A model generated the notes under the pieces. That model made no database searches. It was not told the origin of the DNA and saw only the letters and a program-made list of their open reading frames with translations. A program made the translations under genes and the position numbers. Below are positions 1,503 through 53,570 of a DNA stretch of 64,000 bases, one piece after another. The DNA comes from a virus (lineage: Duplodnaviria > Heunggongvirae > Uroviricota > Caudoviricetes): the IMG/VR virus record IMGVR_UViG_3300023297_000003. One strand, 5' to 3'. Each line of letters begins with the position of its first letter. Position 1 is the stretch's first letter.

Positions 1503-1675
1503 AGACGAACCCGTAGCTTGCGACCTTACCCGTGTCCTCGAAAAGTCCGCTGGCCAGGAGAGCCCTGATCAGCGGGTGTTTGATGTCGTGATGCAGGATG
1601 AAAGCATTCGGGTCCAGGGTTTGCACCAAGTCTCTTACACAGATGGAGAGGGTGGCGTAAACCGTTCCTCAAAAC

Positions 1676-3100
1676 CTACTTGAATCTACTAGGCATCAAG
1701 TTTGAAGCTGTGCCGCTGCCAGACGAATCTGATCCAACGGTAGTAAGCCTCCGGCCCAACGGTAAGGGCTCGAATGACGGTTGCTCTTTTCGCCCGAATC
1801 CCAAGGAACTGGTCCGTCGAAGACGGAATCGCTCTCTCAGCACTCGTTTTACGCCTCGTGGGTGATCACCAGTTCCAATGTGTTCGTTCCCAGAACGTCT
1901 GAGCACACCAGCACTTCCTACCCAATCAGCGTGAGCCTTCCTGCCACAACAGCGGCAACGGAACCTTATTGAACTTCGGTTTCCTCGATGAACATAACCA
2001 CAAGAAGGACACTCCTGCGACGTGTAAGCAGGGTTCACTTTCTTTGTTGGAGCCTTCCTTTCCAAGTTGATCTGTAACGCCCTGTAAGCGAACCGCTTTT
2101 GACCCCGGCAACCTCGAAGATCAAGATCTTCGACTACGAACACCGTCTCGGGATGACGGGCGATGAGGGTATTCACCACACGACCCGTTTCTGTCTTGAT
2201 CAACCCACTCAACTTGCTCTCAAGGTGATCTAACCTTGGACTGTTGTCTTTCAAATCCTGTCGTTGGCGATTTGCTCGGAGATTTCTGACACGAGCATAG
2301 AGCTTATCGAATTTGGGCTTGACGTGCTCACCATAGGTCACTCCATCTGAGGTAGCTGCAAGGACGTTCAGACCAACGTCAACGCCCAACTTAGGCCAAC
2401 CCTCCTGTGCTTCAGGAACGGCCCACTCGGCCTTGCTGACAGCTTCAAAGCGCCAGAAGCCTCGCTTGGTCTTGCGGACCGAAATGCCTTTACTGACCTG
2501 ATCAGCCTGTTGGATGTAAGGATTCCCAACGAGGGGTAACCAGACGGACTTACGAGCTTCTAACGAGGATACTCTCAGCCAGAAATCCCCGAGAGGGGCC
2601 TTCGATGTATCTTCCAATCGAGCCGTCATCTCCGACAACCTCATGGGTAGGTTGTTTCTTACGATAGGCTTATTACCTCCGTAGGTGTCCAACAGGGTGT
2701 GGTAGGCGTCGAGATGGTCTTGAGTAATAACTTTCCACGGTTTACTGATGGACTTCAATCCGATGACATAGAGTGCTTTGGCATCCTGATCGGTAAGGGT
2801 ACCGTCATGCTTAAGGTTGGTAATGGTTGGCTTCAACTTACGAGCATAAGTAGCTTTCGCCCAAGCGCTCACGATTTGTATTGCATGGTCTCGTGCGTTC
2901 TTTTCGATCTGAGACGTAAGGTTGGTGGCCCGTGGGAAGAACGTTTGTTTGGCGGCTTTCGGGAGATTATAGACCCGCTGGTCAAGCATCGTTTGTACGC
3001 AGATACGGACGTACTTGACGTAGGCATTGTGTAGGACTTCCAACTTGTCGATTTTGGACTGATTGGTATCTTTATGAAGTCGGAAGATGCGACATTTCAT
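1676..3100 (-). CDS. tnpB: TnpB (IS605 OrfB-family RuvC-like nuclease with CxxC..CxxC zinc finger)
   Basis: 474 aa; RuvC motifs, AYTSQECPSCG..CRCCGRKAHAD zinc finger; 3' end overlaps right end (omegaRNA region). Confidence 0.9.
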   Translation of the reverse strand: MKCRIFRLHKDTNQSKIDKLEVLHNAYVKYVRICVQTMLDQRVYNLPKAAKQTFFPRATNLTSQIEKNARDHAIQIVSAWAKATYARKLKPTITNLKHDGTLTDQDAKALYVIGLKSISKPWKVITQDHLDAYHTLLDTYGGNKPIVRNNLPMRLSEMTARLEDTSKAPLGDFWLRVSSLEARKSVWLPLVGNPYIQQADQVSKGISVRKTKRGFWRFEAVSKAEWAVPEAQEGWPKLGVDVGLNVLAATSDGVTYGEHVKPKFDKLYARVRNLRANRQRQDLKDNSPRLDHLESKLSGLIKTETGRVVNTLIARHPETVFVVEDLDLRGCRGQKRFAYRALQINLERKAPTKKVNPAYTSQECPSCGYVHRGNRSSIRFRCRCCGRKAHADWVGSAGVLRRSGNEHIGTGDHPRGVKRVLRERFRLRRTSSLGFGRKEQPSFEPLPLGRRLTTVGSDSSGSGTASNLMPSRFK

Positions 3101-3852
3101 TTGACTGTCTCTGCCGCTTCTGCTGCTTTCTTGGCCTTACGTCGTTCTGCCGAACGTTTGCCATAAATCTTAGCGGAGAACGACGACATGAGCGTCAAAA
3201 TGTCTTCGACCAACTCTTCCTGATAGCCTTTGCCAAGGACTTCTTGTGTCCACTCGATGGTGACACCATGACTGTTGAAGTAAGCATTGACCAGATTGAA
3301 CCCGAAGCGAGTCAGGCGGTCTTTGTGTTCAACAACCACCCTATCTATTTCATGGGCATTGACCAGTTTGAACAACTTTCGGAGTTTTGGGCGTGTGTCT
3401 GACATGCCCGACCCAACGTCTTGAAGCACTTCGACCAACTTGTACTGCTTCGTGATGCTGTGTATCGTGACCCGTCCAGCCTGACGTTCAAGATCGCCTG
3501 ACTTTTTCTGATCGTGGCTGGACACACGGCAGTAGATAACAACTCGTTCCGTTTGCTGTTTATCGATTGGGAGATTGCCCAGCAACCTGTCAATGTCTGA
3601 TTGCTTGAAACGGCGATGCCCACCCACGGTGCGAACGTGAGGGATCTTGTCTTCATCAGCCCAGTCCCGAAGCGTATTCCGGTGAACACCAAGAGCTTCG
3701 GCTGCTTTGGTGAGAGCTAGGAGACGATCAGTCAGCATCCTCATCTCCCGCATCAGGTATGGGAAACACCAGTCCTTGATCTTCAAAGACCTTGCGCCAC
3801 CTGTTGTACTGTTGTTGGAACTCTTCGACGGTAGGCACCTCATCGGGATCAA
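3097..3852 (-). CDS. tnpA: IS607-type TnpA serine recombinase (MerR-like HTH + resolvase domain); true start may be internal (~3738)
   Basis: LTKAAEALGVHRNTLRDW HTH; VIYCRVSSHDQKKSGDLERQ serine-recombinase motif; 4-bp overlap with tnpB. Confidence 0.8.
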   Translation of the reverse strand: MIPMRCLPSKSSNNSTTGGARSLKIKDWCFPYLMREMRMLTDRLLALTKAAEALGVHRNTLRDWADEDKIPHVRTVGGHRRFKQSDIDRLLGNLPIDKQQTERVVIYCRVSSHDQKKSGDLERQAGRVTIHSITKQYKLVEVLQDVGSGMSDTRPKLRKLFKLVNAHEIDRVVVEHKDRLTRFGFNLVNAYFNSHGVTIEWTQEVLGKGYQEELVEDILTLMSSFSAKIYGKRSAERRKAKKAAEAAETVK

Positions 3853-4012
3853 ACGGAATGGGGTGTGGGATCACCCGTCCATCAGACGTTTCAAATTCGG
3901 TTGTGGTCACTCGGACGATCATGGTTCGTTTCATGCCTCCACTATACCAACGTGGAGGTTATAAAAGGATCACCGAGAAAAAAGGAGAGTCAGGTAGGTT
4001 TTTGGTTGCTGC

Positions 4013-4162
4013 TCATGCACCCTTGGTGCCCCCGACGACGTGTTTGAGCGTACCCGTGCGCTTGCAATAGTAGATGTCGCCGTCTTCGGTCACGATAACC
4101 AGGAAGTTGTCGGCACGCAGGACCTTGACCGTCGCTCGCTTGGATTCATACTCGTGGGCCAT
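4013..4162 (-). CDS. small hypothetical protein (50 aa)
   Basis: internal ATG with AGGAGG RBS, preceded by GAGTAGAC promoter element; longer ORF upstream part is R/S-rich junk. Confidence 0.3.
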   Translation of the reverse strand: MAHEYESKRATVKVLRADNFLVIVTEDGDIYYCKRTGTLKHVVGGTKGA

Positions 4163-12101: not shown

Positions 12102-12413
12102 CTACTGGCGGCTCTTGGCGATGCGGATGGCGGCGTTCAGGGATATCTCCCCGGCGCAGACCTTATGGGCAATCGTGCTCTTGGTGGGCTTGGCAGTTTC
12201 GAACTCTACGTCCTCGGAGTCCAGGTCAGCGTCCTTGAAGGCCCTGGCGACCTTGACATCCCAGCAGCCAGCTTCCAACCAGAACTGTGTGTCCTCGGGG
12301 GAAAACCTTGCGGAGAGCCAGTCACGAGCGGTATCAGTCAGTTTGCTGTCGTCCCCGTAGGCGGACGTACCAGCAGCGACGAGAACGGCAACCATCTGCT
12401 GTTCCTCAAGCAT
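12102..12413 (-). CDS. hypothetical protein
   Basis: 103-aa ORF directly downstream of TnpB-like gene. Confidence 0.35.
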   Translation of the reverse strand: MLEEQQMVAVLVAAGTSAYGDDSKLTDTARDWLSARFSPEDTQFWLEAGCWDVKVARAFKDADLDSEDVEFETAKPTKSTIAHKVCAGEISLNAAIRIAKSRQ

Positions 12414-13836
12414 TGATCACTCCTGATCGTGAGGGTTTATCCGCACACGGTTGAGAGCCTCTCGACTGCAACTCGTGCCTTTTGACGGTCAGTTCCGCCG
12501 GAGAACGTGCCAACAAGATGCGTTTTACCTCTTGATAAGGGGTGAAACACCCGATGTCCTTGTCAGACAACCGGGCTAACACGTTCAGCGCAGCATTGTG
12601 ATCGGCCTGAATAACATCCCCGTTAATACGGTAAAATTTGTCTCCAACACGCTTGCCTTGCAGCAAACCCGTTACAGAGTCCATTTGCGATGTGTAAGCA
12701 CAGTTTACCAACTCATGGCTGGCTTCACGCTGCGTACAAACTGAATCGAGGGCCTCAGCAAGTGCTCCCTTTGCCCAGCCACTCATTCTTCTATTAAACC
12801 TTTTCCAAGGTCGCTTTTTTGCGATCGGAGAGGTTAAGTCTTCTGACACGACCACCGCTGCCTTATCCACGATGGCATGAGCAGCCTTAAAGGCTACACC
12901 CCGTAGTCGTGTTTGAGCCAATCGTTTACGAGCATCAATCTTTTTACACCCAAGGTTGTGTGCCCTGATGTTGTCAGCTTTTCTGGAGTTTCCGCTTTGA
13001 CGATGCTTTTTTTCTAGGGCGTACAACTTGTTTCTAGCGGAACCCGTCTTGCTGACCTTGTCGCTGTACTCAGTCATCACAGCACCGAACTGCTCACCCT
13101 GATGCTCACCATCCGAATCAACAAATGCTTCGGTGTAGCCTTTATCAACGCCCAGCGTCCGGCTACCATGCGGACGCCCACTGCTTTTATCCACGCTGTA
13201 GTGGATCTCAGTTGTACCACCCTTCACAATGATGCGTAGGTTACAGCTACTCAGATCCACACTCGTGCCGTTTGACGTTGTCGTTAGAACTATGTCGTCA
13301 CCGTATTTACGGGCAATTTGGATGACGATCGTCAGATACCCATTAACGTGCTCTATTTTGAATTTGTCGGACCTCACGATAAACTGATTTTTCGTGTGTG
13401 AGACGCCGTGCTTGAAGTGTTTACGCATTTGGCGGTGAAGGAAGGGATCCTCCATCCATGCGTCTGATCGCAGAAGCGTGTAGAGTCGTTTGCGTTCCAT
13501 TTCATTGTCGGTGCGCTGCCAAATGGCTTTGCGAACCTTTCCTTTCGCTGCTGCTTTGTAGAACAGGATGTCGTTCACGACATCTTTGGTTGTTTCGTTA
13601 CGTATGGTCCCGTCTATGGCGAGAGTGACGTAGATGCCACCTGCTACAATTTCTTTACGGATAGCCAAGGCACTTTTACCCACGTTCTTCAGGGCACCGT
13701 ACCGACGCCAGACATCTGCACGAAGAAATCTGGTAGCTCGACACACCTGCAACAAAGCAGGCGGAACATCTGCCTGAAGAATGCGAGTGACTTTCAAGAC
13801 GTCAATCCTTCGCTCTCTGTTTCCTGAGTTTCTCAA
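12406..13836 (-). CDS. divergent TnpB-like RuvC nuclease with degenerate zinc finger
   Basis: 476 aa; GVDKGYTEAFVDSDGE (RuvC-I), VVVSEDL (RuvC-II), AYTSQ..DVIQADHNAALNVLAR (RuvC-III) but only CxxxxxxxxxxC instead of CxxC..CxxC. Confidence 0.65.
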   Translation of the reverse strand: MRNSGNRERRIDVLKVTRILQADVPPALLQVCRATRFLRADVWRRYGALKNVGKSALAIRKEIVAGGIYVTLAIDGTIRNETTKDVVNDILFYKAAAKGKVRKAIWQRTDNEMERKRLYTLLRSDAWMEDPFLHRQMRKHFKHGVSHTKNQFIVRSDKFKIEHVNGYLTIVIQIARKYGDDIVLTTTSNGTSVDLSSCNLRIIVKGGTTEIHYSVDKSSGRPHGSRTLGVDKGYTEAFVDSDGEHQGEQFGAVMTEYSDKVSKTGSARNKLYALEKKHRQSGNSRKADNIRAHNLGCKKIDARKRLAQTRLRGVAFKAAHAIVDKAAVVVSEDLTSPIAKKRPWKRFNRRMSGWAKGALAEALDSVCTQREASHELVNCAYTSQMDSVTGLLQGKRVGDKFYRINGDVIQADHNAALNVLARLSDKDIGCFTPYQEVKRILLARSPAELTVKRHELQSRGSQPCADKPSRSGVINA

Positions 13837-14136: not shown

Positions 14137-14772
14137 ATGACACTTTTAGAACAGCACCGTGACCTGGCCCTCATGATCCTCGTAGGCAGGGCACTTCCCG
14201 AAGGACTGCCCTGGACCCCGGATGAGGACCAGGGCTTCGTGTCCCGTGAGCGCCTCCTGTGGGTCCAGTTGACCGAAGAGGAGCAGGCACAGGAACAGGA
14301 GGCTCTGGGGGCGCTGTGGGGCAAGCGTGGCGCTCCCCGTACCGTTCCCGTGAATCCCCAGTGGGGTGCTTGGACAGAGGGCCTCACCGAGGTCTCGATC
14401 CCTGACTCGGCGTTCGGTTTACCGGACAACGCCTTCCGCCCCTTGGTGAAGGGCATCCAGATCCTGGCCGAGGAGCACCCCGAGTTGATCGTCCTGTTAG
14501 AGTGGTTGTGGAAGCGGGGGTTCCATCCCGTTGCTTTCGATGGGGACACCCTCACGCTGCTCATCCCGCCCCACAGAATCGTCCAGGAGTCCGAGCGGCT
14601 GGTTGGGATCCTCATCCGGGACTGGCCCAAGATCCCCGTGGTGTCCCGCCCGGCGGAGGCGTCCCTGACCGTTAAGGGTTCCTATGACCCCGTGAGCGGT
14701 CAGGCGATCATCTATCTGTCAGGGGTCACGCCGTTTCAATCCACGCACCTTTTGCCAAAAGATGCGACTTAG
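14137..14772 (+). CDS. hypothetical protein
   Basis: 211-aa ORF with protein-like composition; opposite ORF 14100..14630 is R/S-rich artefact; 3' end contains SRU2. Confidence 0.5.
   Translation: MTLLEQHRDLALMILVGRALPEGLPWTPDEDQGFVSRERLLWVQLTEEEQAQEQEALGALWGKRGAPRTVPVNPQWGAWTEGLTEVSIPDSAFGLPDNAFRPLVKGIQILAEEHPELIVLLEWLWKRGFHPVAFDGDTLTLLIPPHRIVQESERLVGILIRDWPKIPVVSRPAEASLTVKGSYDPVSGQAIIYLSGVTPFQSTHLLPKDAT
14733..14768 (+). repeat. solitary CRISPR-repeat-like unit (SRU2), 30/36 identical to array repeat
   Basis: gtttcaatccacgcaccttttgccaaaagatgcgac; both handles conserved, central hairpin replaced. Confidence 0.6.
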
Positions 14773-14776
14773 GCAC

Positions 14777-15544
14777 TCAGACGTAAAACACTCTCCACTG
14801 CGTGGCGTGCTTGAAACCGTCCTCCTCGAACTGCGGTTGCGGGGGGCAGTGACAGAGGATGACGTGTTCCCGGCATCCTTCGGGGAACGCCTGGAGGATT
14901 TTTTGGTAGGAACAGTGGACGTCGTACTTGGAATCGTCCCCGTAGACCTGACAGTCCTGGAAGATGATGTCTGCGTCCTTGTCCGAGGGGTTAACGGTGT
15001 CGCCTGTGAAGTAAACCTTACGCAAGGAGGGCACCCGGATCTTGACCCCATAGACAGGGAAATCTTCGATGTTGTGATCCTCGGGGAAGAACTCCGCCGT
15101 GAAACCCTCCACCTCCAGGTCAGCACCATTCCCCAGGAAGCAGCCCTGCCAGTAGTCCAACCACACGTTAGCTGGGCCACCTGATGTCCGTGTCAACTCC
15201 ACCATCGTTTGTTCCAGCAGCACTTGGAGCTTGCTGGGGATCACGAGAGGGATCTTGCGCTTCAACATGTATTTGAAGGTGTAGGCCAGCCCGAGTAGGC
15301 CCCCAGTGTGATCGTAGTGTACGTGCGTGATGAAGATCCCCTTCAGGTTCTTCAGGGCACGCAACCCGACCAGGGTGGCGAGGGTCTCTGGTCCGCAGTC
15401 GACCAACCAGAAGGGATGGCTTTGGAGCAACTCTGGTCCGGGGATCCCTCTGGGGGCATTCGGGACGATGGCGAAGTTCGTGTTGCCCATCCCAGGGACG
15501 GGGATCCCACCACCATGACCGAGTACGATGATTGCGGTGCTCAT
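14777..15544 (-). CDS. metallo-beta-lactamase-fold hydrolase
   Basis: THVHYDHTGG (HxHxDH) motif and downstream conserved D and H residues. Confidence 0.7.
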   Translation of the reverse strand: MSTAIIVLGHGGGIPVPGMGNTNFAIVPNAPRGIPGPELLQSHPFWLVDCGPETLATLVGLRALKNLKGIFITHVHYDHTGGLLGLAYTFKYMLKRKIPLVIPSKLQVLLEQTMVELTRTSGGPANVWLDYWQGCFLGNGADLEVEGFTAEFFPEDHNIEDFPVYGVKIRVPSLRKVYFTGDTVNPSDKDADIIFQDCQVYGDDSKYDVHCSYQKILQAFPEGCREHVILCHCPPQPQFEEDGFKHATQWRVFYV

Positions 15545-16146
15545 TCGGTGTCCTCCGTGAGAAGGGCCGCAGTCTGGACGAGTTGTTCAACCACCGATTT
15601 CCGGGGCGTCCTTGTACCATCAAAACCGAGTTTTTCACAGGCAGCGAGACCGGCAGCGACGCAGTGTCCCACACGCTCCTGGAGGAGGGTGAAACCCGAA
15701 CGGCCTGAGTCGTATCCAAAAGGGTAAAGAGCACGTCCCGCCGTCAAGAGGTGGTAGCAGACGCCTTCTCGGATTGTCTCAGGAAAAGCGAGCCACCCAA
15801 GAAGTACCCTGACATGGGGCATCACCCCGGCACAGGAAATTGCAGGGTCCATTACCGTGGTGTTCATGGTGATAAAGTTTCGTTGGTAGCTCGGGAAAAG
15901 GGGGCCTGGATCCGGGAGGTTCAGGTAAATCATCGCTGCCTGATGCGCCTCCATATTGAGGAGGTGCCGTTCCTCGAACACGGGCAGCACCCCTGCGATT
16001 TCCTCCAAGATTTTCAGGTGCTCCAGTCGAGCTTTGAGAAGCTGGTGGCCCACGTACTCCTGATACTGCTGGTCGGTGTCCTCCCACGAGGGGGGAGTGG
16101 TACCCTTTTCGATGGCAATGCCTTTCTTGGTGAATTTGACGGACAT
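15541..16146 (-). CDS. hypothetical protein
   Basis: 201-aa ORF, 4-bp overlap with downstream gene. Confidence 0.45.
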   Translation of the reverse strand: MSVKFTKKGIAIEKGTTPPSWEDTDQQYQEYVGHQLLKARLEHLKILEEIAGVLPVFEERHLLNMEAHQAAMIYLNLPDPGPLFPSYQRNFITMNTTVMDPAISCAGVMPHVRVLLGWLAFPETIREGVCYHLLTAGRALYPFGYDSGRSGFTLLQERVGHCVAAGLAACEKLGFDGTRTPRKSVVEQLVQTAALLTEDTE

Positions 16147-16575
16147 GGAACACCTCCTGACTTGGTCTACTCCATTCAGCCGAAAAGCGACCCCGTGTGA
16201 GACCTTACGGACAACCCGATGAGACGTTTTAACCGCCCGTCCTTGCAGCGTCGTTCACAGGCATCTCGATCTAGGCACTCTATCACCGGGACGCCCCGGA
16301 CACGGGTTTGCCGGAGAGCGCTCATTTTTTGAGTGGCCCCGCAGCATGTGCAGAAGCCCGTCTTCTCTAGCATTTAGGGCCTACTCCTCGTCAATAATGG
16401 TCTGGGCCGTGTGGATCATTTCGGCCCCGAAGGCCACAAGGAAGGAACCAGCGAAATAAAGGAACAGGGGCATGTCAATGCCTCCTCTGTTATTCGTATG
16501 ATACCGGCGATGGTGGGGTTGTCTAGGCTTCGAACTTTTCCAGATGGGAGGTGCCCCTGGATTTACGCTTCAGGA

Positions 16576-16929
16576 CTACGTTTGGTTTTTGAAGGCTTCC
16601 TTGTCCAGTCTGAATCCAACGGCGGTAGCCTTCGTAATGTCCTCGCCTGTACGAGCCAGGCCCGTCAGAAAAATTATTTCACCCTTTGCAGCCACTGCAT
16701 AACGGTTCCATCCCCACCAGCCGTAGATGGCACTGCCACCCTTTACATGGAGGCAAGGTCTGAGCTTGTCAGTACCCTTCAAAGAGGTGTATCCGGCCTC
16801 CCAAACGTCCTTGAAGGCGTCAAAGGAACAGTGCCCCATCCGCTCCTGGGTGCCAAGACGTCGGTAATCCTCGCCTTCTACCTCAATGAGTTTTTCAAAG
16901 GCATCAGGTTGGTATATGTAAACGGACAT
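16576..16929 (-). CDS. hypothetical protein
   Basis: 117-aa ORF. Confidence 0.4.
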   Translation of the reverse strand: MSVYIYQPDAFEKLIEVEGEDYRRLGTQERMGHCSFDAFKDVWEAGYTSLKGTDKLRPCLHVKGGSAIYGWWGWNRYAVAAKGEIIFLTGLARTGEDITKATAVGFRLDKEAFKNQT

Positions 16930-16949
16930 GTTGCGCTCCTCGGATTTCC

Positions 16950-17276
16950 CTAATGTAGCTTAGTCCCAACAGCACCATACCACAAGGTGCCGACAGTGCC
17001 ATCCGGCCAAACGACCAGGACGGGGCGTTTCCGTTTTTGAGCATACCTGACGGTTGCCCATGTACCTGAGCGCTGTATCTCATGCATTGCTTTCGAGCAC
17101 GCCACTAGAATTTGAGAGGCGTCTACAATGTCATGGTCACGGACGGTATAGGGTTTGAGGGGATGGGTTTCATCAGCTACACAGTAGGCTCGGTTTTTCG
17201 GGTTTTCAGGCGGGTGTGTGACACGGTACAAACCAAGCTCCTCAGCAACAGAGTCAGCCTCAGAATCTGCCCCCAC
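16950..17276 (-). CDS. hypothetical protein
   Basis: 108-aa ORF. Confidence 0.4.
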   Translation of the reverse strand: MGADSEADSVAEELGLYRVTHPPENPKNRAYCVADETHPLKPYTVRDHDIVDASQILVACSKAMHEIQRSGTWATVRYAQKRKRPVLVVWPDGTVGTLWYGAVGTKLH

Positions 17277-17293
17277 ACAATCCCCATGGTGGA

Positions 17294-17646
17294 GGGTACT
17301 TGACAGTACCCCTCAAACTTACTAAAGTCTAACTATTCCTGCTTGAAACAGGGAGCTGTTGTGGCAGGAAGGCTTATGCTGATTGGGTAGGAGGTTCTGG
17401 TGTGCCCAGATGTTCTGGGAATGAACACACCAAAGCTGGCGATCATCCACGAGGCGTAAAACGAGTGCTGAGAGAGCGATTCCGTCTTCGACGGACCAGT
17501 TCCTTAGGATTCGGGCGATTAGAGCGGTCGTCAATCGAGCCCTTACCGTTGGGCCGGAGGTTTACTACCGAGGTACTTGGGTCACCAAGATTCGGCACAG
17601 CTTCAAACTTGATGCCTGTTACATTTTAGCAGGTTTTAAGGAACGG
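17294..17646 (+). mobile_element. 353-bp miniature TnpB-derived element (mini A): left-end hairpin + last ~80 codons of tnpB + right end
   Basis: gggtacttgacagtaccc hairpin; junction ..cctgcttgaaacaggga|gctgttgtggcagg identical in all three minis; ends ..ggaacgg. Confidence 0.7.
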
Positions 17647-17703
17647 TTGAGTACCTCCTCGGGGCAGTCAAGGATAGCAGCAGCATCGGTTCGTGTCATT
17701 GAT

Positions 17704-17967
17704 TCAGTCATCTGCTTCCTCTTCCGCTTTCAGGCGTTTCAGTTCCGCCTTCCGAACCTGACGCTTCAACGCTCGTCCGTTGGGACAGATGCAGAAGCCC
17801 TTGAGACGGGCATCCCACCCCGGTACCGGCTGATCAAGGCGTCCGCTGCACCCACAGAGGCCACAGATGGGGACCGTCATGTTGGCACTGTGGACCTTCG
17901 GGTCGAACCATTTTGGGAGTGTCCGTACAATGAACTCGTACCAGAGGGGATCTCGCTTTGAAGCCAT
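17704..17967 (-). CDS. small zinc-ribbon protein
   Basis: CGLCGCSG..CICPNG; start moved to internal ATG to avoid 146-bp overlap. Confidence 0.4.
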   Translation of the reverse strand: MASKRDPLWYEFIVRTLPKWFDPKVHSANMTVPICGLCGCSGRLDQPVPGWDARLKGFCICPNGRALKRQVRKAELKRLKAEEEADD

Positions 17968-21116: not shown

Positions 21117-21742
21117 CACCAACTGTACTCCCGAGGCCATTCCCGAAGGGTCCATTCCTTTCCGATTGGCCCGGTTGCCTCAGGTGCTGTATCCCCAGCG
21201 TAGTTGTCCCCCCGTGCCGTCCGCATGAGATCGTTGCCTGCTGCCTTCAGTTCCTGGTCAAACTTGGCAATGAGGGCCAGCACTTTAGGCTGTTTTCTCC
21301 ACCCCCGTGGCAGGCGTTTGTTCATTACGGCTGCGTAGTGCCTTTCACCACGGGCAATTGCAGCGGGCGCTGTCATCGTTTTTGCCTCTCCAATCTGCAT
21401 GCAGTTTTGGCACCCACACTCTTGGAATGCGAGTCTCACACCTCGGTACCACTCCCAGATTGTGTTCTCCAGGTATTCATCTGTCTCCTTATCACAGGAG
21501 CCAAAAACCGTAGTGTCCTTCAAATAATCAAGGGCGAGCATATCCGGGTCGTCCCGTTTCCAGGGGCCATGACCCCAAGGCACATGCTCAGGACCAGGAA
21601 GCCCCATCTTTTCCCTCAGATGATTTTGGTCTTCAGGGGTGAGGGGCTGCTGGTCCTTAACCTTTTGCAACACCGGATCATTTATGCTGTCCAGCGCAAA
21701 CTGAAGCGTCCCTGGTCCTGGTACGACCTCACCCATCGTCAC
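21116..21742 (-). CDS. hypothetical CGCxNC-motif protein (paralog B)
   Basis: 208 aa, see 19819..20442. Confidence 0.5.
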   Translation of the reverse strand: MTMGEVVPGPGTLQFALDSINDPVLQKVKDQQPLTPEDQNHLREKMGLPGPEHVPWGHGPWKRDDPDMLALDYLKDTTVFGSCDKETDEYLENTIWEWYRGVRLAFQECGCQNCMQIGEAKTMTAPAAIARGERHYAAVMNKRLPRGWRKQPKVLALIAKFDQELKAAGNDLMRTARGDNYAGDTAPEATGPIGKEWTLREWPREYSW

Positions 21743-23604
21743 ACCCCCGCCAGCTTGTACGCCTCGTCCAAGCCGATCACCTTCACGCCGTACTGCTTGG
21801 CCTTTTTCGCTTTGCCCGAGGTACTGTCCGGGTCCAGGGCGATCAGGTAGGATAGTTTCTTGGACACGCTGCCCTTCATTGTGCCACCCGCCTTTTCGAT
21901 AGCATCGAGCAGGGCGGGTTCACGGGTGCCAGTCAGGCAAAAGGTCATCCCGAGCAACGGCCCGGAGATGTCCTGGATGGTGATGTCGGCTCCGCCAAGG
22001 TCTTGCGTGGCCCGCAACTTGACGATCAGCCCGGCCTTGGCAGCAAATCCCGTCACGAAGGCCAGCGCTTTCGTGTCCCCCATTCCAGGGATGCTGGCAA
22101 CTGCCGGGAGGGTCTTGCCCCTGGTGACGATGGGAACATGCACCTTGGCCTTGAAGAGCAGGTTCAGGGTGGTGTATCCAGCGTCCACAACCACCTTGGC
22201 CATGCTGCGCCCGATCAGGGGGATACCCAGGCTCCCTATCAGGACGTGCAGGGGCAGCGTCTTCTTGGCGTTAAGGTTCCTGAGGGCTTTGTCCGCCGAG
22301 CCGCCGACACGCCGTCCGCTCAACTCCAGGGAGGCGACCTCGTCCAGGTCCAGGTTGTAGAGGTCAGCGATGTCCATTGGGGCGTTGCGTATCCGTTCCT
22401 GATCCGCTGCCGGGAGGGTCTTCACGTCATCCTTCTTTACGCCGAAGGTGACTTCAAACACTTCCTCGGTGAGGGTGAAAGGGAACGCATCCACCATTGC
22501 GTCGATCAGGGTCTCGCCAACGTGTAGGACACCGAGCTTCTTGACCCAGCGTCTGATGGCCCCGGTTGCCTGGGCGGGGCACTCCTCGCTGCGGCACACA
22601 AGGTACTCGCCGTCCCGCACCAAGGCTCCCTGGCAGGAGGGGCACTGGGTCGGGGTGCGGAGTCCCGTGCCTGTACCGAACTTGTTCAGGACTTCCTCTA
22701 CATAGGGGATAACATCATTTCTGCGAGAAACGAGAATTGCGTCGCCGGGTACCGGAACAGTGGCTTTGCCCCACAGCCCTTCGATGTTGCTGATGTTGTG
22801 AAGGCTCGCCTGTTTGACGTTCGCCCCTGCGAGGTTCACAACGTCAAATTCGGCCACCGGGGTGATGCGCCCGCTGTTGCCTACCTGCCAACGGATGCTC
22901 CGCAGCGTGGTCGGCTTGGACTCATGAGGAAACTTATAAGCGCAGGCACCCTTGGGGCGGTTGTTCAGTTCCCCAAGCATCGCACGGGCGTTGGCGTCAG
23001 CCACCTCGATCACCAGCCCGTCGATATCGTAACCCAGGCTCTTCCTGACGGTGGCGATGTAGTCCTGGTAGAGGGCCTCCACTGCTGCCAGTCCCTTGTA
23101 CTCACCCCAGCGGGGTACCTGGAAGCCCATCGTGGCCAGGGCCTTCAACTCGGCGCTCTTGGACGCCATCGGGCGACCACCGGGCAGGAGTTGATAGCAG
23201 ATAACCGTCAGGAAGGCACATTTGCTGTTGTCAGTTTGACGTTTCGCAGTGCCGCTCGCCGTGTTACGGGGGTTGGATTCGCCCTTGAAGTGGGTGACGA
23301 AGTCATCGTGGGTCACCACAACCTCGGCCCGCACCCACACATCGTCTGGGGTGGGGGTGCCATCCGGTAACGTCGGGGGCAGTACCTTGACTGCACCCTT
23401 CATCAGCAGGACGTTCCGGGTGATATCCTCGCCTATCGTCCCGTCGCCCCGTGTCAGCGCCTGCACTAGCTTCCTGTTTTCGTATCTCATCCCACAGTTG
23501 TGTGCTAAAATTCCAGGCCCCACAAAGTAACAGGACGTATTGCGGATTGTCAGATCAAAGGCTCTTCTGGGTCCCGGTACTTTCTCAACGGATGCAACTC
23601 GCAT
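21739..23604 (-). CDS. ligA: split-intein C-half (36 aa, ..GILAHN) fused to NAD-dependent DNA ligase C-terminal portion
   Basis: MRVASVEKVPGPRRAFDLTIRNTSCYFVGPGILAHN|CGMRYENRKLVQALTRGDGTIGEDIT (LigA motif after KxDG); own promoter motif 23635-23663. Confidence 0.8.
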   Translation of the reverse strand: MRVASVEKVPGPRRAFDLTIRNTSCYFVGPGILAHNCGMRYENRKLVQALTRGDGTIGEDITRNVLLMKGAVKVLPPTLPDGTPTPDDVWVRAEVVVTHDDFVTHFKGESNPRNTASGTAKRQTDNSKCAFLTVICYQLLPGGRPMASKSAELKALATMGFQVPRWGEYKGLAAVEALYQDYIATVRKSLGYDIDGLVIEVADANARAMLGELNNRPKGACAYKFPHESKPTTLRSIRWQVGNSGRITPVAEFDVVNLAGANVKQASLHNISNIEGLWGKATVPVPGDAILVSRRNDVIPYVEEVLNKFGTGTGLRTPTQCPSCQGALVRDGEYLVCRSEECPAQATGAIRRWVKKLGVLHVGETLIDAMVDAFPFTLTEEVFEVTFGVKKDDVKTLPAADQERIRNAPMDIADLYNLDLDEVASLELSGRRVGGSADKALRNLNAKKTLPLHVLIGSLGIPLIGRSMAKVVVDAGYTTLNLLFKAKVHVPIVTRGKTLPAVASIPGMGDTKALAFVTGFAAKAGLIVKLRATQDLGGADITIQDISGPLLGMTFCLTGTREPALLDAIEKAGGTMKGSVSKKLSYLIALDPDSTSGKAKKAKQYGVKVIGLDEAYKLAGV

Positions 23605-23634: not shown

Positions 23635-23663
23635 TCTACTCTGTGGGGTCCGCAGATGATCCC
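23635..23663 (-). promoter_or_regulatory. conserved phage promoter-like motif upstream of IntC-ligA-C ORF
   Basis: tctactct-N12-gatgatccc (reverse complement of GGGATCATC..AGAGTAGA). Confidence 0.5.
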
Positions 23664-25292: not shown

Positions 25293-25378
25293 TGCGTTGG
25301 TCTCCTTGTCAGGGGTCATTTGCCCCCTCACTTTAACTACTCAGCAGGTCGGTGAGATGATCCCTTTTTGTCGTGCTC

Positions 25379-25768: not shown

Positions 25769-25841
25769 CGGTGAGCCTCCCAGGGGACGTTTGCCCCTCA
25801 CTTGGACTACTCAACAGGGTGGTGAGATGATCCCTTCCTTC

Positions 25842-34656: not shown

Positions 34657-35042
34657 GTTTCAATCCACATACCGTTCCTTAAAACCTGCTAAAATGTAAC
34701 AGGCATCAAGTTTGAAGCTGTGCCGAATCTTGGTGTCCCAAGTACCTCGGTAGTAAACTTCCGGCCCAACGGTAAGGGCTCGAATGACGGTTGCTCCTTC
34801 CGTCCGAATCCCAAGGAACTGGTCCGTTTAACACGGAATCGCTCTCTTAGCACTCGTTTTATGCCTCTCGGATGATCGTTAGTTTTGATGCGTTCGTCCC
34901 CAGAACATCTGGGCACACCAGAACCTCCTACCCAATCAGCATGAGCTTTCCTGCCGCAACAGCTCCCTGTTTCAAGCAGGAACAGTTAGACTTTAGCAGG
35001 TATGAAGGGCACTGTCAAGTACCCTTTGTCAAAGGATACGAC
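34657..35042 (+). repeat. solitary CRISPR-repeat-like unit (SRU3) split by insertion of mini element B
   Basis: left flank gtttcaatccacata (34657-34671), right flank tttgtcaaaggatacgac (35025-35042) together resemble one 36-bp repeat. Confidence 0.5.
34672..35024 (-). mobile_element. 353-bp miniature TnpB-derived element (mini B)
   Basis: same composition and deletion junction as mini A; right end ccgttcc.. at 34672, left-end hairpin gggcactgtcaagtaccc 35007-35024. Confidence 0.7.
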
Positions 35043-44191: not shown

Positions 44192-45700
44192 CTACGGACG
44201 AGATGGCTCAGGCTGCAATGATCCAGGTGGTGAACAGGCGGTTCGCTGATGGACACTGGTACCGTTCCTTAAAACCTGCTGGAATGTAACAGGCATCAAG
44301 TTTGAAGCTGTGCCGCTGCCAAATGACTCTGATCCAACGGTAGTAAGCCTCTGGCCCAACGGTAAGGGCTCGAATGACGGTTGCTCCTTCCGCCCGAATC
44401 CCAAGGAACTGGTCCGTTTAACACGGAATCGCTCTCTTAGCACTCGTTTTACACCTCTTGGATGATCGCCAGCTTTGATGTGTTCGTCTTCAGAACGTCT
44501 GAGCACACCAGAACTTCCCACCCAATCAGCGTGAGCCTTCCTACCGCACGAGCGGCAATGGAACCTTATTGAACTTCGGTTGCCTCGATGAATGTAACCG
44601 CAGGAGGGGCACTCCTGCGACGTATAAGCCGGGTTCACCTTCTCTGTTGGGGCTTTTCTCTCCAAGTTGGTCTGTAACGCCCTGTAAGCAAACCGCTTTT
44701 GGCCTCGGCAACCTCGAAGGTCGAGATCCTCGACCACGAACACTGTCTCAGGATGGCGGACGATAAGGGTGTTTACTACACGACCCGTTTCTGTCTTGAT
44801 CAACCCACTCAGCTTGCTTTCAAGGTGATCCAACTTTGGGCTGTTGTCCTTCAGGTCCTGTCGTTGGCGGTTTGCTCGGAGATTTCTGACACGAGCGTAG
44901 AGCTTGTCGAACTTAGGTTTGACGTGTTCACCATAGGTCACGCCATCTGAAGTAGCTGCAAGCACGTTCAAGCCCACATCCACACCCAACTTAGGCCAAT
45001 CTTCCTGTGCTTCAGGAATGGTCCACTCAGCCTTGCTAACTGCCTCAAAGCGCCAGAACCCCTTCTTGGTTTTACGGGCTGATATCCCCTTGTTAACCTG
45101 ATCAGCCTGCTGGATGTAAGGATTCCCAACAAGAGGCAACCAGACGGATTTCCGAGCTTCCAACGAGGACACCCTCAGCCAAAAACCCCCCAAAGGAGCT
45201 TTAGTTGTGTCTTCCAATCGAGCCGTCATTTCTGACAACCTCATGGGTAGGTTGTCCCTTACGATAGGCTTGTTGCCTCCGTAGGTGTCCAACAGGGTGT
45301 GATAAGCATCGAGATGGTCTTGGGTGATGAACTCCCATGGCTTGCTGATGGACTTCAACCCGATGACACAGAGTGCTTTGGCGTCCTGATCGGTGAGGGT
45401 ACCGTCATGCTTGAGATTGGTGATAGTCGGCTTTAATTTACGAGCGTAAGTAGCTTTGGCCCAAGCACTTACGATTTGAATTGCATGGTCTCGTGCGATC
45501 TTTTCGATTTGAGACGTAAGATCAGTAGCCCGTGGGAAGAACGTTTGTTTGGCGGCTTTCGGGAGGTTGAGGGTTTGCTGGTTGAGCATCGTCTGTACGC
45601 AGATACGGACGTACTTGACATATGCTTTGTGCAGGGCTTCCAACTTATCGATCTTAGATCGGTTGGTGTCCTTGTGAAGTCGGAAGATGCGACACTTCAT
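44192..45700 (-). CDS. tnpB: TnpB (second copy; 3' tail reads through right end)
   Basis: 502 aa, ~90% identical to 1676..3100 copy, intact RuvC and zinc finger. Confidence 0.85.
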   Translation of the reverse strand: MKCRIFRLHKDTNRSKIDKLEALHKAYVKYVRICVQTMLNQQTLNLPKAAKQTFFPRATDLTSQIEKIARDHAIQIVSAWAKATYARKLKPTITNLKHDGTLTDQDAKALCVIGLKSISKPWEFITQDHLDAYHTLLDTYGGNKPIVRDNLPMRLSEMTARLEDTTKAPLGGFWLRVSSLEARKSVWLPLVGNPYIQQADQVNKGISARKTKKGFWRFEAVSKAEWTIPEAQEDWPKLGVDVGLNVLAATSDGVTYGEHVKPKFDKLYARVRNLRANRQRQDLKDNSPKLDHLESKLSGLIKTETGRVVNTLIVRHPETVFVVEDLDLRGCRGQKRFAYRALQTNLERKAPTEKVNPAYTSQECPSCGYIHRGNRSSIRFHCRSCGRKAHADWVGSSGVLRRSEDEHIKAGDHPRGVKRVLRERFRVKRTSSLGFGRKEQPSFEPLPLGQRLTTVGSESFGSGTASNLMPVTFQQVLRNGTSVHQRTACSPPGSLQPEPSRP

Positions 45701-45775
45701 TTACTGACCTCTGCTTCTTGTTTCAAGCAGGAATAGTTAGATTTTAGCAACTAAATTGGGTACTGTCAAGGACCC
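44262..45775 (-). mobile_element. IS1341-type (tnpB-only) IS200/IS605-family element
   Basis: right end ccgttcc.. at 44262; left-end hairpin gggtactgtcaaggaccc 45758-45775; no tnpA. Confidence 0.75.
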
Positions 45776-46465
45776 CGACCCAGGGCCAGAGCCTTCGAGC
45801 CTTTCCGAGGAGACCCGTTCCGACCTCCAAACACGTTCTCTGGAATTCGCTGTGGACGCCCAGCACAACCCCTACCTAAGAGCACTGCAAAATGACAGGC
45901 AGTCCCTCAAGATTTGGGAGACCAGAAGGAAACATTTTGAACTGGCGCAGAAGGCGTCAGAAGGGGACGCTGAGGCTGCTCTGGAGTTGCTCACTACTCG
46001 TGGAAGTTACGAGTACGAGGGTTGGGACTATGAGCATGTCCAGTGCGCTGTTCCCTTTCCCTCTGAACCACTCGATGTGGCGCTAACAATAGTGGTGGAA
46101 GCTATAAGGTCAGCGGAAAAGCGGGCAATTCGGGCAAAGGCCACAGCAGACAGGGTACAGGAAAAGGATCGACAGGAAAAGGCCCTGAACAGGGCCTTAC
46201 AAGCAGACAACAAAGCCAAAGTGCTCCGAGGGATCCTGCGGGACATTTGTAGGGCCACGGCTCACGCTCTTCCGGAAAACGAAAAGGACTAGGTGATGGG
46301 AAAAACAGGGGACCGGAAAAAGGGGCCAAACCTTCAAAACATCCCTATCAGGACACCTGAGGGAAGGCGTATTCGTGATGCGTTCCGCCGTCCCCTTCCT
46401 CATGTGGACTATGCCACTCTTGAACGGCACCTCCTTGAAAGAGGGGTTGTGCCTTCTGACTTTCA

Positions 46466-53129: not shown

Positions 53130-53217
53130 TGAGTCAGACCATTTCTATCGACCGGATCCAGGTGTTGCACTTCGCTGACGGGGTAGATCGGGTGGAAATC
53201 CTCACGGACAAACCCTA

Positions 53218-53570
53218 CCGTTCCTTAAAACCTGCTAGAATGTAACAGGCATCAAGTTTGAAGCTGTGCCGAATCTTGGTGACCCAAGTACCTCGGTAGT
53301 AAACTTCCGGCCCAACGGTAAGGGCTCGGATGACGGTTGCTCCTTCCGTCCGAATCCCAAGGAACTGGTCCGTCGAAGACGGAATCGCTCTCTCAGCACT
53401 CGTTTTACGCCTCGTGGGTGATCGTTAGTACCAATGTGTTCACCCCCAGAACATCTGGGCACACCAGAACCTCCTACCCAATCAGCATAAGCCTTCCTGC
53501 CATAACAGCCTCCTGTTTCAAGCAGGAACAATTAGACTTTAGTAAGTTTGAGGGGTACTGTCAAGTACCC
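53218..53570 (-). mobile_element. 353-bp miniature TnpB-derived element (mini C)
   Basis: right end ccgttcc.. at 53218, left-end hairpin ggggtactgtcaagtacccc at 53552-53571; same junction as minis A and B. Confidence 0.7.

What the first reader, a model, noticed from the sequence alone, without database searches (positions are those of the whole stretch)
17294..17646. Three 353-bp TnpB-derived mini elements share one deletion junction and retain only ends plus the omegaRNA-scaffold region
The mini elements at 17294..17646 (plus), 34672..35024 (minus) and 53218..53570 (minus) are the same length. Each has the left-end hairpin (gggtacttgacagtaccc type) about 22 nt upstream of where tnpB would start. 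That is fused at the identical point (..cctgcttgaaacaggga|gctgttgtggcagg, within the zinc-finger codons CCGRKAHADW) to the last ~80 codons of tnpB and the right end. An identical junction in three dispersed copies means one deletion derivative has since transposed. The retained part is where TnpB omegaRNAs are encoded. These may be non-autonomous elements that supply guide RNAs to TnpB made from the two full copies, each with a different flank-derived guide.
Basis: partly seen in the sequence, partly recalled or inferred. Interest (0 to 1): 0.65.

Follow-up and report, generated by a model that had tools for sequence, protein, structure and literature searches.

The report
IS607 mini-transposons that keep only the guide RNA
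Three 353-bp copies of one deletion derivative of an IS607-type transposon keep only the left-end promoter and the complete structured guide-RNA (omegaRNA) region of tnpB; they are probably protein-less transposons that borrow transposase and TnpB nuclease from full copies nearby, a kind of element already described for the related IS605 family.

Summary
Three 353-bp elements (17294-17646 +, 34672-35024 -, 53218-53570 -) are 90-92% identical, share one LE/tnpB junction and have unrelated flanks. The family is IS607, not IS605. A complete copy (LE, 68-aa ORF, serine-recombinase tnpA, tnpB, RE) lies at about 1661-4021, and a tnpB-only copy at 44261-45776. The LE "hairpin" overlaps a near-consensus sigma-70 promoter (TTGACA-17-TAAAGT) present in every copy.

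The retained tnpB tail carries a roughly 270-nt RNA structure. In 33 sequences, 41 of 76 pairs show compensatory changes. Synonymous sites in full tnpB genes become constrained from about codon 385, which is where the deletion junction lies. Mini-specific mutations ignore the old reading frame (21 nonsynonymous, 6 synonymous) but mostly keep base pairs.

Same-junction minis occur in other metagenomes. The left flank is always RGGGT and the RE ends CGGT, matching the published IS607 TAM logic.

The structure matches no Rfam family, including RAGATH-18. Guide supply to TnpB in trans is inferred, not shown. The concept is already published for IS605 PATEs, so I rate this a new member of a known kind with moderate interest.

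Side finding: mini2 sits inside a type I-C CRISPR repeat on a 528-kb, possibly huge-phage, contig.

The parts
17294..17647 (+). mini1: complete 353-bp non-autonomous element (GGGT...CGGT)
   Evidence: The metagenome contig L012 is 100% identical across window 14423-17612.
17294..17356 (+). mini1 left end (LE). It holds the palindrome GGGTACTTGACAGTACCC and the hairpin TTCCTG-N7-CAGGGA. The deletion junction with GC microhomology is at 17355-17356.
   Evidence: The same LE sits upstream of tnpB in full2, L007, L020 and L034, and upstream of orfX-tnpA in L028.
17300..17328 (+). LE promoter-like site, TTGACA-17 nt-TAAAGT, reading into the RNA region
   Evidence: 10 of 12 matches. The -35 box and the 17-nt spacing are invariant in 13 of the 14 left-end sequences compared (the 14th, L048, is a doubtful left end with TTGACG and no -10 match).
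17378..17647 (+). mini1 omegaRNA-like scaffold: 14 helices and 76 pairs, with the 3' end at the RE
   Evidence: 41 pairs with compensatory changes; 75 of 76 pairs are intact in mini1. MFE z-score -4.6.
17648..17667 (+). predicted guide of mini1 (flank after RE), TGAGTACCTCCTCGGGGCAG
   Evidence: unique in the window. That it acts as a guide is inferred by analogy to IS607 omegaRNAs.
34671..35024 (-). mini2: the same element, inserted inside a solitary degenerate type I-C CRISPR repeat. Promoter at 35018-34990; predicted guide at 34670-34651, ATGTGGATTGAAACACGATG.
53217..53570 (-). mini3: the same element. Promoter at 53564-53536; predicted guide at 53216-53197, AGGGTTTGTCCGTGAGGATT.
   Evidence: L013 carries the same left flank.
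1661..4021 (-). full1: autonomous IS607-type element. It comprises a diverged LE (~4021), orfX (3934-3728), tnpA (3744-3097), tnpB (3100-1676) and the omegaRNA region/RE (~1930-1661).
   Evidence: The LE position is tentative.
3097..3744 (-). tnpA, an IS607-family serine transposase (215 aa)
   Evidence: NF033518, 196 bits against a cutoff of 110. Resolvase plus an N-terminal HTH_17/MerR domain.
1676..3100 (-). tnpB (474 aa). The RuvC residues D241, E324 and D392 and the CxxC..CxxC zinc finger are conserved.
44261..45776 (-). full2: tnpB-only derivative with the LE (45776-45713) directly upstream of tnpB (45700-44192). The ORF reads through the RE into the flank, giving 502 aa.

Best explanation
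The three elements are copies of one non-autonomous, MITE/PATE-like deletion derivative of an IS607-family transposon. A tnpB-only parent lost everything between the end of its left end and tnpB codon ~385.

What remains is:
- a 62-nt left end that carries a near-consensus sigma-70 promoter;
- the complete ~270-nt structured RNA that overlaps the tnpB 3' end and stops at the right end, i.e. the omegaRNA scaffold of this TnpB clade;
- the right end itself.

Inferred mechanism. The serine transposase TnpA of the full copy (3097-3744) excises and inserts the minis in trans at RGGGT sites. The LE promoter transcribes scaffold plus downstream flank, which gives each mini its own guide. TnpB made by the full copies loads these RNAs and cuts the vacated RGGGT+flank site after excision, so that recombination restores the mini ('restorative homing').

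Shown here: common origin, dispersal, a conserved RNA structure, a conserved promoter, RNA-level but not protein-level constraint in the minis, and the presence of tnpA and tnpB. Inferred only: transcription, TnpB loading, cleavage and homing.
For: **Single origin and mobility**
- The junction is identical and the flanks are unrelated in three window copies.
- The same junction occurs in L037 and L039 from other metagenomes, at 86-91% identity.

**IS607 family**
- tnpA matches NCBIfam 'IS607 family transposase' at 196 bits against a cutoff of 110.
- L028 has the same LE upstream of orfX-tnpA-tnpB.

**RNA structure**
- In 33 distinct sequences, 76 pairs were predicted and 41 have changes on both sides.
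- 96.6% of cells are paired, against 83.3% in shuffles and 33-48% when partners are slid; the covariation score is 0.460 against 0.228, and 0 of 500 shuffles reach it.
- The structure ends at ...AAGGAACGGT, which is conserved even in copies from Myxococcota and Actinomycetota MAGs.

**The 5' edge of the constraint coincides with the junction**
- The identical-codon fraction among identical residues is 0.35-0.55 for codons 50-388. It rises to 0.62-0.95 from codons ~384-398 onward.

**Constraint in the minis is on the RNA, not the protein**
- 75 of 76 pairs are intact in each window mini.
- Mini-specific variants are 21 nonsynonymous against 6 synonymous. They include zinc-finger C->Y, HAD-motif H->Y and L->P.
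- 8 of 11 mini-specific variants in paired columns keep the pair.

**Promoter**
- TTGACA-17-TAAAGT is present in all three minis and conserved across the LEs.

**TAM logic**
- The left flank plus boundary is RGGGT in every identifiable LE, while the RE ends CGGT.
- This parallels TGGG against TCGG in the C. botulinum IS607 element (10.1101/2023.11.20.567912) and the G-rich AGGAG/GAGGG TAMs of IS607 TnpBs (PMC11061315).

**TnpB competence and trans action**
- The D-E-D residues and the zinc finger are invariant across 37 homologues.
- OmegaRNA supplied in trans works for an IS607 TnpB (10.1101/2023.11.20.567912, fig. S10 legend).
- PATEs that 'often encode omegaRNAs' needing TnpB in trans are already noted for IS605 (PMC10055086).
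Against: - No expression, RNA-binding or cleavage data exist for this family. The promoter is a consensus match only, and the replicon may not use sigma-70.
- The structure matches no Rfam family, not even RAGATH-18 (the known IS607 reRNA) at E <= 10. Its identity as an omegaRNA therefore rests on position and analogy.
- TnpB scores just below NCBIfam's guided_TnpB cutoff (91.5 against 100). Only its C-terminal ~100 residues resemble solved TnpB/Cas12 proteins.
- Polymorphisms shared in mosaic fashion between minis and full copies suggest gene conversion, which could help keep the structure intact without selection on the minis themselves.
- The RNA-constraint test rests on few events (11 in paired columns), and those events are not phylogenetically independent.
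- Part of the retained region may be needed for TnpA binding rather than for RNA function.
Confidence: 0.7

Rival explanations
1. The minis are plain MITEs. TnpA mobilises them in trans, but the retained tnpB tail has no RNA function in the minis. It survives because the deletion happened to end there, because the copies are young, or because homologous gene conversion from full copies keeps refreshing it.
For: - Mosaic sharing of variant blocks between minis and full copies, for example CGATTAG..GGTCG in mini1 and L020, and GTGTTAAACG in mini2 and full2.
- No expression data.
- The remnant reading frame is still open in all minis.
Against: - The minis differ from each other by 8-15% and occur in several related genomes, so they are not very young.
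- Mini-specific changes are about 3.5:1 nonsynonymous to synonymous, so they were not imported from coding copies. They still mostly preserve pairs.
- The junction sits at the 5' edge of the synonymous-site constraint.
- A second, independent mini (L018) also joins an LE promoter to a diverged version of the whole scaffold.
Confidence: 0.17
2. The conserved structure is not a TnpB guide RNA. It is instead a cis-acting element of transposition or regulation, such as a TnpA synapsis site, an antisense or attenuator RNA controlling tnpB, or an RNA stability element. The minis would keep it because TnpA or element regulation needs it.
For: - No Rfam omegaRNA or RAGATH-18 match.
- The TnpB clade is distant from characterised ones.
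- The LE palindrome overlapping the -35 box suggests regulation by a DNA-binding protein.
Against: - Compensatory base-pair changes indicate selection on a single-stranded fold rather than on duplex DNA sites.
- The position (tnpB 3' end up to the exact RE boundary), the size (~270 nt) and the GGGT/CGGT boundary logic match characterised TnpB omegaRNAs (10.1101/2023.11.20.567912; PMC11061315).
Confidence: 0.08
3. The minis are domesticated stand-alone guide-RNA genes of the host replicon, used for something other than their own retention. Examples would be targeting competing elements or regulating genes through TnpB binding. Mobility would then be secondary.
For: - Each mini has a promoter and a different flank-derived 3' sequence.
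- One mini lies in a CRISPR repeat beside a type I-C cas operon.
Against: - Each predicted guide matches only its own flank in the window; other matches have 4 or more mismatches.
- The guides are set by the insertion site, as in ordinary TnpB elements.
- Nothing suggests an alternative target.
Confidence: 0.05

Closest known systems
PATE-like, protein-less IS200/IS605 derivatives that retain an omegaRNA (Geobacillus stearothermophilus; Meers et al. 2023, PMC10055086)
   Same: Both are non-autonomous and have no ORF. Both keep the two transposon ends plus the guide-RNA region, and both need TnpA and TnpB from other copies in trans. The paper says this explicitly for PATEs.
   Different: Those elements have Y1-transposase, single-strand hairpin ends and TA-rich TAMs. 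The elements here belong to an IS607 (serine recombinase) family with a G-rich RGGGT boundary, a different and larger scaffold, and a strong LE promoter fused about 20 nt upstream of the scaffold.
IS607-family TnpB-omegaRNA systems (C. botulinum CboIStron, 10.1101/2023.11.20.567912; ISFba1 TnpB with RAGATH-18-derived reRNA, PMC11061315)
   Same: - A serine TnpA with tnpB downstream.
- The omegaRNA overlaps the tnpB 3' end and stops at an RE ending ...CGG.
- The TAM/target is G-rich and differs from the RE end by one base (TGGG vs TCGG there; GGGT vs CGGT here).
- No TIRs or TSDs.
- A laboratory 'mini-IS' lacking both genes is excised by TnpA in trans, and omegaRNA works in trans.
   Different: - TnpB here is ~474 aa, against ~390 aa there, and is only weakly similar to characterised TnpBs.
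- The RNA does not match RAGATH-18 or any other Rfam model.
- The full element has an extra conserved 68-aa ORF upstream of tnpA.
- Natural omegaRNA-only IS607 minis did not turn up in the papers I searched.
Bacterial MITEs in general
   Same: Short, non-coding internal-deletion derivatives of an IS. There are multiple dispersed copies, mobilised in trans.
   Different: There are no terminal inverted repeats and no target-site duplication, because a serine recombinase is the transposase. The interior is a conserved functional RNA rather than filler.

Membership tests
IS607 family insertion sequence | Serine-recombinase TnpA with an N-terminal MerR-like HTH | tested here: met
   window 3097-3744(-): NCBIfam NF033518 'IS607 family transposase', 196 bits against a cutoff of 110. 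Pfam Resolvase (2e-21) plus HTH_17/MerR at the N-terminus.
IS607 family insertion sequence | tnpB immediately downstream of tnpA, or overlapping it | tested here: met
   tnpA 3744-3097 and tnpB 3100-1676 overlap by 4 nt.
IS607 family insertion sequence | No terminal inverted repeats or target-site duplication; a GG core dinucleotide at both boundaries | tested here: met
   The LE starts (R)GGGT and the RE ends CGGT in all copies. GGT is shared at both ends, and there is no TIR and no duplication beyond it. The crossover position itself cannot be tested here.
IS607 family insertion sequence | The minis share both ends with a tnpA-bearing element | tested here: met
   L028 has the same LE (74% over 65 nt, including TTGACA and the TTCCTG..CAGGAA hairpin), followed by orfX-tnpA-tnpB-RE. 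The LE of the window's own full1 is much more diverged.
TnpB / OMEGA RNA-guided nuclease system | RuvC D-E-D catalytic residues and a C-terminal zinc-ribbon (TNB) domain | tested here: met
   D241, E324, D392 and the CxxC..CxxC motif are invariant in 37 homologues. Pfam Cas12f1-like_TNB scores 45-49 bits against a cutoff of 26. NCBIfam guided_TnpB scores 91.5 bits, just below its cutoff of 100.
TnpB / OMEGA RNA-guided nuclease system | A structured RNA that overlaps the tnpB 3' end and terminates at the RE | tested here: met
   76 pairs, 41 of them with compensatory changes. Synonymous-site constraint starts at about codon 385.
TnpB / OMEGA RNA-guided nuclease system | The RNA is transcribed, binds TnpB and guides TAM-dependent DNA cleavage | not testable with these tools
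   Only indirect evidence: promoter-like sites and the RGGGT/CGGT boundary logic.
RAGATH-18-derived reRNA (known IS607 TnpB guide RNA) | Match to the Rfam RAGATH-18 covariance model | tested here: not met
   No hit at the gathering threshold in the window, and none at E <= 10 in 17200-17750.
Non-autonomous mini element (MITE/PATE-like) | No functional ORF, both ends of the parent retained, several dispersed copies with different flanks | tested here: met
   The remnant frame lacks a start in frame with the catalytic core and carries H->Y and C->Y changes.
Non-autonomous mini element (MITE/PATE-like) | Mobilisation in trans by the parental transposase | not testable with these tools
   Inferred from identical junctions at different sites in this genome and in related genomes. 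No empty-site allele was recovered.

The most novel reading that the evidence does not exclude
This IS607/TnpB family may be shedding its protein genes stepwise within one large, possibly huge-phage, replicon: an autonomous 2.4-kb copy, a tnpB-only 1.5-kb copy, and 353-bp promoter-plus-omegaRNA copies. On this reading the smallest form is a free-standing, selectable guide-RNA gene under RNA-level purifying selection. It would make a dispersed multi-guide repertoire served by one or two nuclease genes. That would be a natural intermediate between one-guide transposon nucleases and multi-guide CRISPR-like systems. One copy has already landed in a CRISPR repeat whose reverse complement carries the element's target motif.
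Probability: 0.12. Interest if true: 0.75.

Novelty: new member of a known kind. Interest (0 to 1): 0.45.

Why it matters
If the minis are transcribed and loaded by TnpB, the guide RNA alone would be a sufficient selfish unit in the IS607 family, as has been proposed for IS605 PATEs. That would extend the 'modular TnpA / TnpB / omegaRNA' picture to serine-recombinase transposons.

In practical terms, the deletion junction, the covariation model and the synonymous-site profile together mark out a minimal natural scaffold of about 270 nt and its promoter. They do so for an uncharacterised ~474-aa TnpB clade with a predicted RGGGT TAM, which is useful for anyone wanting to reconstitute this nuclease.

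The setting also gives a concrete case of interplay between a transposon guide system and a CRISPR array: the minis lie on a 528-kb, possibly phage, contig that carries a type I-C CRISPR-Cas locus, and one mini sits inside a CRISPR repeat.

Tried and rejected
- **Rfam.** The gathering-threshold scan of the window gave only a tRNA. A permissive scan of the mini (E <= 10) gave only noise hits, psbT-asRNA and CLRN1-AS1. The RNA is therefore not RAGATH-18 or any other curated family.
- **Genome-contig scan** with a TnpB alignment gave only 6 MAG loci, and the source genome was not among them.
- **Covariance model from A6.** I used nhmmer instead. It found the five known copies plus one weak hit at 35897-35960 (E 0.007), which I rejected as chance after alignment.
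- **Plasmid collection**, blastn with the mini: no match.
- **IMG/VR** exact 32-mer across the mini1 left junction: no match.
- **Is the replicon a phage?** The 756-aa ORF has no match in GenBank phages. LigA is only ~30% identical to phage ligases. This stays unresolved.
- **Other truncated copies.** I considered counting L010, L022/L043, L040 and L048 (truncated at TnpB residues 332-358) as independent minis whose junctions cluster just upstream of the scaffold. Only L010 has a recognisable LE, so I do not rely on them. L009/L036/L047, L042 and L045/L046 are LE-less 3' fragments, i.e. remnants.
- **Shared LE/RE motifs** as possible TnpA sites (GGTACTTG, TCAAACTT): not conserved in the full copies, so I dropped them.

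Full report
**1. Observation**

The three elements are real. BLAST of 17294-17646 against the window returns 53570-53218 (91.8% identity) and 35024-34672 (90.1%) over the full 353 bp. It also returns matches of positions ~62-353 to 1953-1662 (84.9%) and 44548-44262 (84.0%), and of positions 1-63 to 45775-45713. Alignment with 50-bp flanks shows that homology begins at GGGTACTTGACAG and ends at AAGGAACGGT, with the flanks diverging at once.

Aligned to the two long copies, all three minis join LE ...TTCCTGCTTGAAACAGGRRGC to tnpB ...TGTTRYGGCAGGAAGGCT (codons CCGRKAHADW). The junction is at the same nucleotide in each, with a 2-nt GC overlap at 17355-17356. A family profile (nhmmer) finds only these five copies in the window.

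The GGGTAC..GTACCC palindrome is ~57 nt, not ~22 nt, upstream of the tnpB ATG in the tnpB-only copy. About 90 codons are retained. GGT is present at both boundaries, so the inserted unit is 350 bp if the shared GGT is counted once.

**2. What the parents are**

ORF 1676-3100(-) (474 aa) and ORF 44192-45700(-) (502 aa) are 91% identical. Both carry the Cas12f1-like TNB zinc-ribbon domain and a weak OrfB_IS605 match. The RuvC residues D241, E324 and D392 and the zinc finger are invariant in 37 homologues. NCBIfam guided_TnpB scores 91.5 bits, just under its cutoff of 100. Against solved structures, only the C-terminal ~100 residues match CasPhi, Cas12f and TnpB. This is therefore a divergent TnpB clade.

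The ORF at 3097-3744(-), directly upstream of the first tnpB, is an IS607-family serine transposase (NF033518, 196 bits against a cutoff of 110; Resolvase plus N-terminal HTH).

A conserved 68-aa ORF (3934-3728) precedes tnpA. It recurs in metagenome locus L028 between the LE and tnpA. The window thus holds three tiers of one family:
- an autonomous copy at ~4021-1661;
- a tnpB-only copy at 45776-44261, with the LE abutting tnpB (an arrangement also seen in L007, L020 and L034);
- three minis.

**3. Relatives elsewhere**

The TnpB has 510 detectable homologues, almost all unnamed metagenome proteins. Only six loci turned up in the species-representative genome set, from Myxococcota, Actinomycetota, Planctomycetota and other MAGs.

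A DNA pattern from the conserved tail (GCCCTYACCGTTGGGC-N7-TTACTACC) retrieved 38 metagenome loci and 4 IMG/VR loci.
- L012 is 100% identical to window 14423-17612.
- L037 and L039 are complete minis with the same junction, at 86-91% identity and with different flanks.
- L013 carries mini3's left flank.

The mini lineage therefore predates the divergence of several related genomes.

L018 is an independent mini. It has an LE with TTGACA-17-TAAAAG, followed by a diverged but recognisable scaffold and no tnpB similarity. Several other loci are truncated at TnpB residues 332-358, or are LE-less 3' fragments. I do not rely on these.

**4. The retained region is a conserved structured RNA**

A MAFFT alignment (A6) covers 33 distinct tails: the minis, the full copies and distant relatives down to ~55% protein identity. 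RNAalifold on it predicts a consensus structure of 76 pairs in 14 helices. Of these pairs, 41 show changes on both sides that keep the pair.

The counting controls are clear:

| Measure | Observed | Shuffled | Partners slid 1-3 columns |
|---|---|---|---|
| Cells paired | 96.6% | 83.3% | 33-48% |
| Covariation score | 0.460 | 0.228 (0 of 500 reach observed) | 0.04-0.11 |

Examples:
- Hairpin CYCAGA-YG-TTCTGRG changes to CTGCGA..TCGCAG and to CTGAGA..TCTCAG.
- CCGTC..GACGG changes to CTGC..GCAG and to CCTC..GAGG.
- CTTGG..CCAAG changes to CGGGC..GCCCG and to CTCC..GGAG.

The structure runs from A6 column 48 (17378 in mini1) to the last base before the flank; the first helix that shows compensatory changes starts at column 63 (17393). 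The 3' boundary ...AAGGAACGGT is conserved even in copies from MAGs of other phyla. The mini1 transcript alone folds with z = -4.6, and its centroid reproduces the main helices.

**5. The junction sits at the 5' edge of the RNA constraint**

I codon-aligned 14 full tnpB genes and measured how often identical residues use identical codons. The fraction is 0.35-0.55 over codons 50-388. It rises to 0.62-0.78 for codons 384-437 and to 0.75-0.95 further on. Codons ~439-460 are inflated, because the search pattern that selected the loci lies there.

The minis start at codon ~385, 22 nt before the first predicted pair. The deletion has therefore removed almost exactly what is neither LE nor scaffold.

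**6. The minis evolve as RNA, not as protein**

Each window mini keeps 75 of 76 pairs. I examined variants that are found in minis but not in the five closely related full copies:
- 21 are nonsynonymous and 6 synonymous in the old frame, roughly the unconstrained expectation.
- They include zinc-finger C->Y, HAD-motif H->Y and L->P. The L->P change turns a U·G pair into a C-G pair in helix 4.
- 8 of 11 that fall in paired columns keep the pair. The three exceptions are in one hairpin of L037.

My own calculation: if at most about one third of random substitutions preserve a pair, 8 or more out of 11 has a probability of about 0.01. The events are few and not independent. Mosaic sharing of variant blocks between minis and full copies also shows that gene conversion occurs, which weakens this argument somewhat.

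**7. Promoter and ends**

The LE 'hairpin' overlaps a near-consensus sigma-70 promoter, TTGACA-17-TAAAGT (10 of 12 matches), present in all three minis. The -35 box and the spacing are invariant in 13 of the 14 left-end sequences compared (the exception, L048, is a doubtful left end), and the -10 box is TAAAGT, TAAAAT, TAAAAG or TAGA-type. It points into the scaffold.

The left boundary reads RGGGT in every identifiable LE, while the RE ends CGGT. This matches the published IS607 logic. In the C. botulinum element, TnpA_S and TnpB both recognise TGGG, the omegaRNA scaffold ends ...UCGG, and the single-base difference prevents self-cleavage (10.1101/2023.11.20.567912). ISFba1-type IS607 TnpBs use AGGAG or GAGGG TAMs (PMC11061315).

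By analogy, the predicted TAM is RGGG(T) and the guide is the flank after CGGT. The five predicted guides are all different, and each is unique in the window.

**8. Comparison with what is known**

The idea that protein-less derivatives keep an omegaRNA and depend on TnpB in trans is already stated for IS605 PATEs (PMC10055086). Laboratory IS607 'mini-IS' constructs are excised by TnpA_S in trans, and omegaRNA works in trans.

What is specific here is threefold. This is a natural IS607-family mini. The TnpB clade and scaffold are uncharacterised, and the scaffold matches no Rfam family, including RAGATH-18. And the structure, synonymous-site and mini-specific-mutation evidence pins down the functional unit.

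I file it as a new member of a known kind.

**9. Context noticed on the way**

The window is part of a 528,260-bp JGI contig, Ga0208769_1000001. Most ORFs lack Pfam hits, and the recognisable ones are phage-like: HNH/Srd-like endonuclease, RtcB, a divergent LigA and a PARP-like protein. The best GenBank phage hit for TnpB is a 485-kb uncultured phage. The replicon type remains open.

A type I-C cas3-cas5-cas8c-cas7 operon and a CRISPR array of at least 17 repeats lie at 36055-43486. mini2 is inserted inside a solitary degenerate repeat. Removing the mini and one copy of the shared ACC core reconstitutes a 36-nt repeat variant, GTTTCAATCCACATACCCTTTGTCAAAGGATACGAC. The reverse complement of the older array repeats contains AAAGGGT, which is the element's target motif.

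**10. Verdict**

Function in trans is inferred but not shown. The concept is not new, so interest is moderate.

Noticed in passing
window 34657-34670 and 35025-35042 (flanking mini2); array 36055-37245: mini2 is inserted inside a solitary, degenerate type I-C CRISPR repeat. Removing the mini reconstitutes GTTTCAATCCACATACCCTTTGTCAAAGGATACGAC. The reverse complement of the older array repeats (36243-36575) contains AAAGGGT, the element's RGGGT target motif. mini2's predicted guide matches 12 of the first 14 nt after that motif in those repeats, with mismatches at guide positions 1-2.
   Followed up: partly
window 37442-43486 (-) and 36055-37245: A type I-C CRISPR-Cas interference module: cas3 41108-43486, cas5 40342-41013, cas8c/Csd1 38513-40345 and cas7 37442-38467, with an array of at least 17 repeats. 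No cas1, cas2 or cas4 is recognisable next to it. The only ORF between the array and the solitary repeat (35072-35971, 299 aa) has no family hit.
   Followed up: partly
whole window; L049: The window is part of the 528,260-bp JGI contig Ga0208769_1000001 (sample 3300025697). Most ORFs have no Pfam hit. HNH/Srd-like endonuclease (48376-49734), RtcB (61539-62726), a divergent NAD-ligase (21739-23604) and a PARP-like protein (46856-48403) suggest a huge phage or another large mobile replicon. The best GenBank phage hit for TnpB is a 485-kb uncultured phage, LR745208.1, at 44% identity.
   Followed up: partly
window 3728-3934 (-); L028 ~5190-5390: A conserved 68-aa ORF (MKRTMIVRVTTTEFETSDGRV...) lies between the LE and tnpA in the autonomous copy and in metagenome locus L028. 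It has no Pfam or NCBIfam hit. It may be a third gene of this IS607 lineage.
   Followed up: partly
window 12406-13836 (-): A third, distantly related TnpB-like ORF of 476 aa. It scores 62 bits on NCBIfam guided_TnpB and hits the PHROG 'transposase' family. It has DKG / EDL / QADHNAALN RuvC motifs but no zinc-finger cysteines, and it is 29% identical to the IS607 TnpB over 223 residues. I did not examine its own ends or RNA.
   Followed up: no
window 23636-23700, 25295-25369, 25783-25836, 27091-27141, 29095-29154, 29711-29768, 33084-33146, 46465-46518, 46793-46853, 57607-57669: A dispersed ~60-nt repeat, GGGATCATCTCC..C.GAGTAG...GGTGAGGGGCAAATGACCCC. It is usually followed by a GGAGG-like site and a start codon, and it is also present in L037. 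It looks like a repeated promoter or 5'-UTR element of this replicon.
   Followed up: partly
A6 columns 100-165 and 200-225; minis vs full1, full2, L020: Blocks of variants are shared in mosaic fashion between minis and full-length copies, for example CGATTAG..GGTCG in mini1 and L020, and GTGTTAAACG in mini2 and full2. This points to recombination or gene conversion among family members.
   Followed up: no
L013 (FUWD013109582.1) vs window 53216-53964: A related metagenome contig has mini3 with the same left flank (95% over 750 bp), but a different 3' third of the element and an unrelated right flank. This is either recombination between two minis or an assembly chimera.
   Followed up: partly
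window 44192-44262 (-): In the tnpB-only copy the tnpB stop codon is lost (TAG to CAG). The ORF reads through the RE into the flank, giving 502 aa against 474. L020 does the same (488 aa). A tRNA-Ile(GAT) gene lies ~190 bp beyond this RE, at 44002-44073.
   Followed up: no
L045/L046 (IMGVR_UViG_3300009514_000001, 222 kb), L047 (IMGVR_UViG_3300025615_000008), L048 (IMGVR_UViG_3300009514_000515): Scaffold-bearing fragments or truncated copies of the same RNA family occur on contigs classified as viral in IMG/VR. Some are LE-less 3' remnants directly after a gene or a terminator hairpin.
   Followed up: partly
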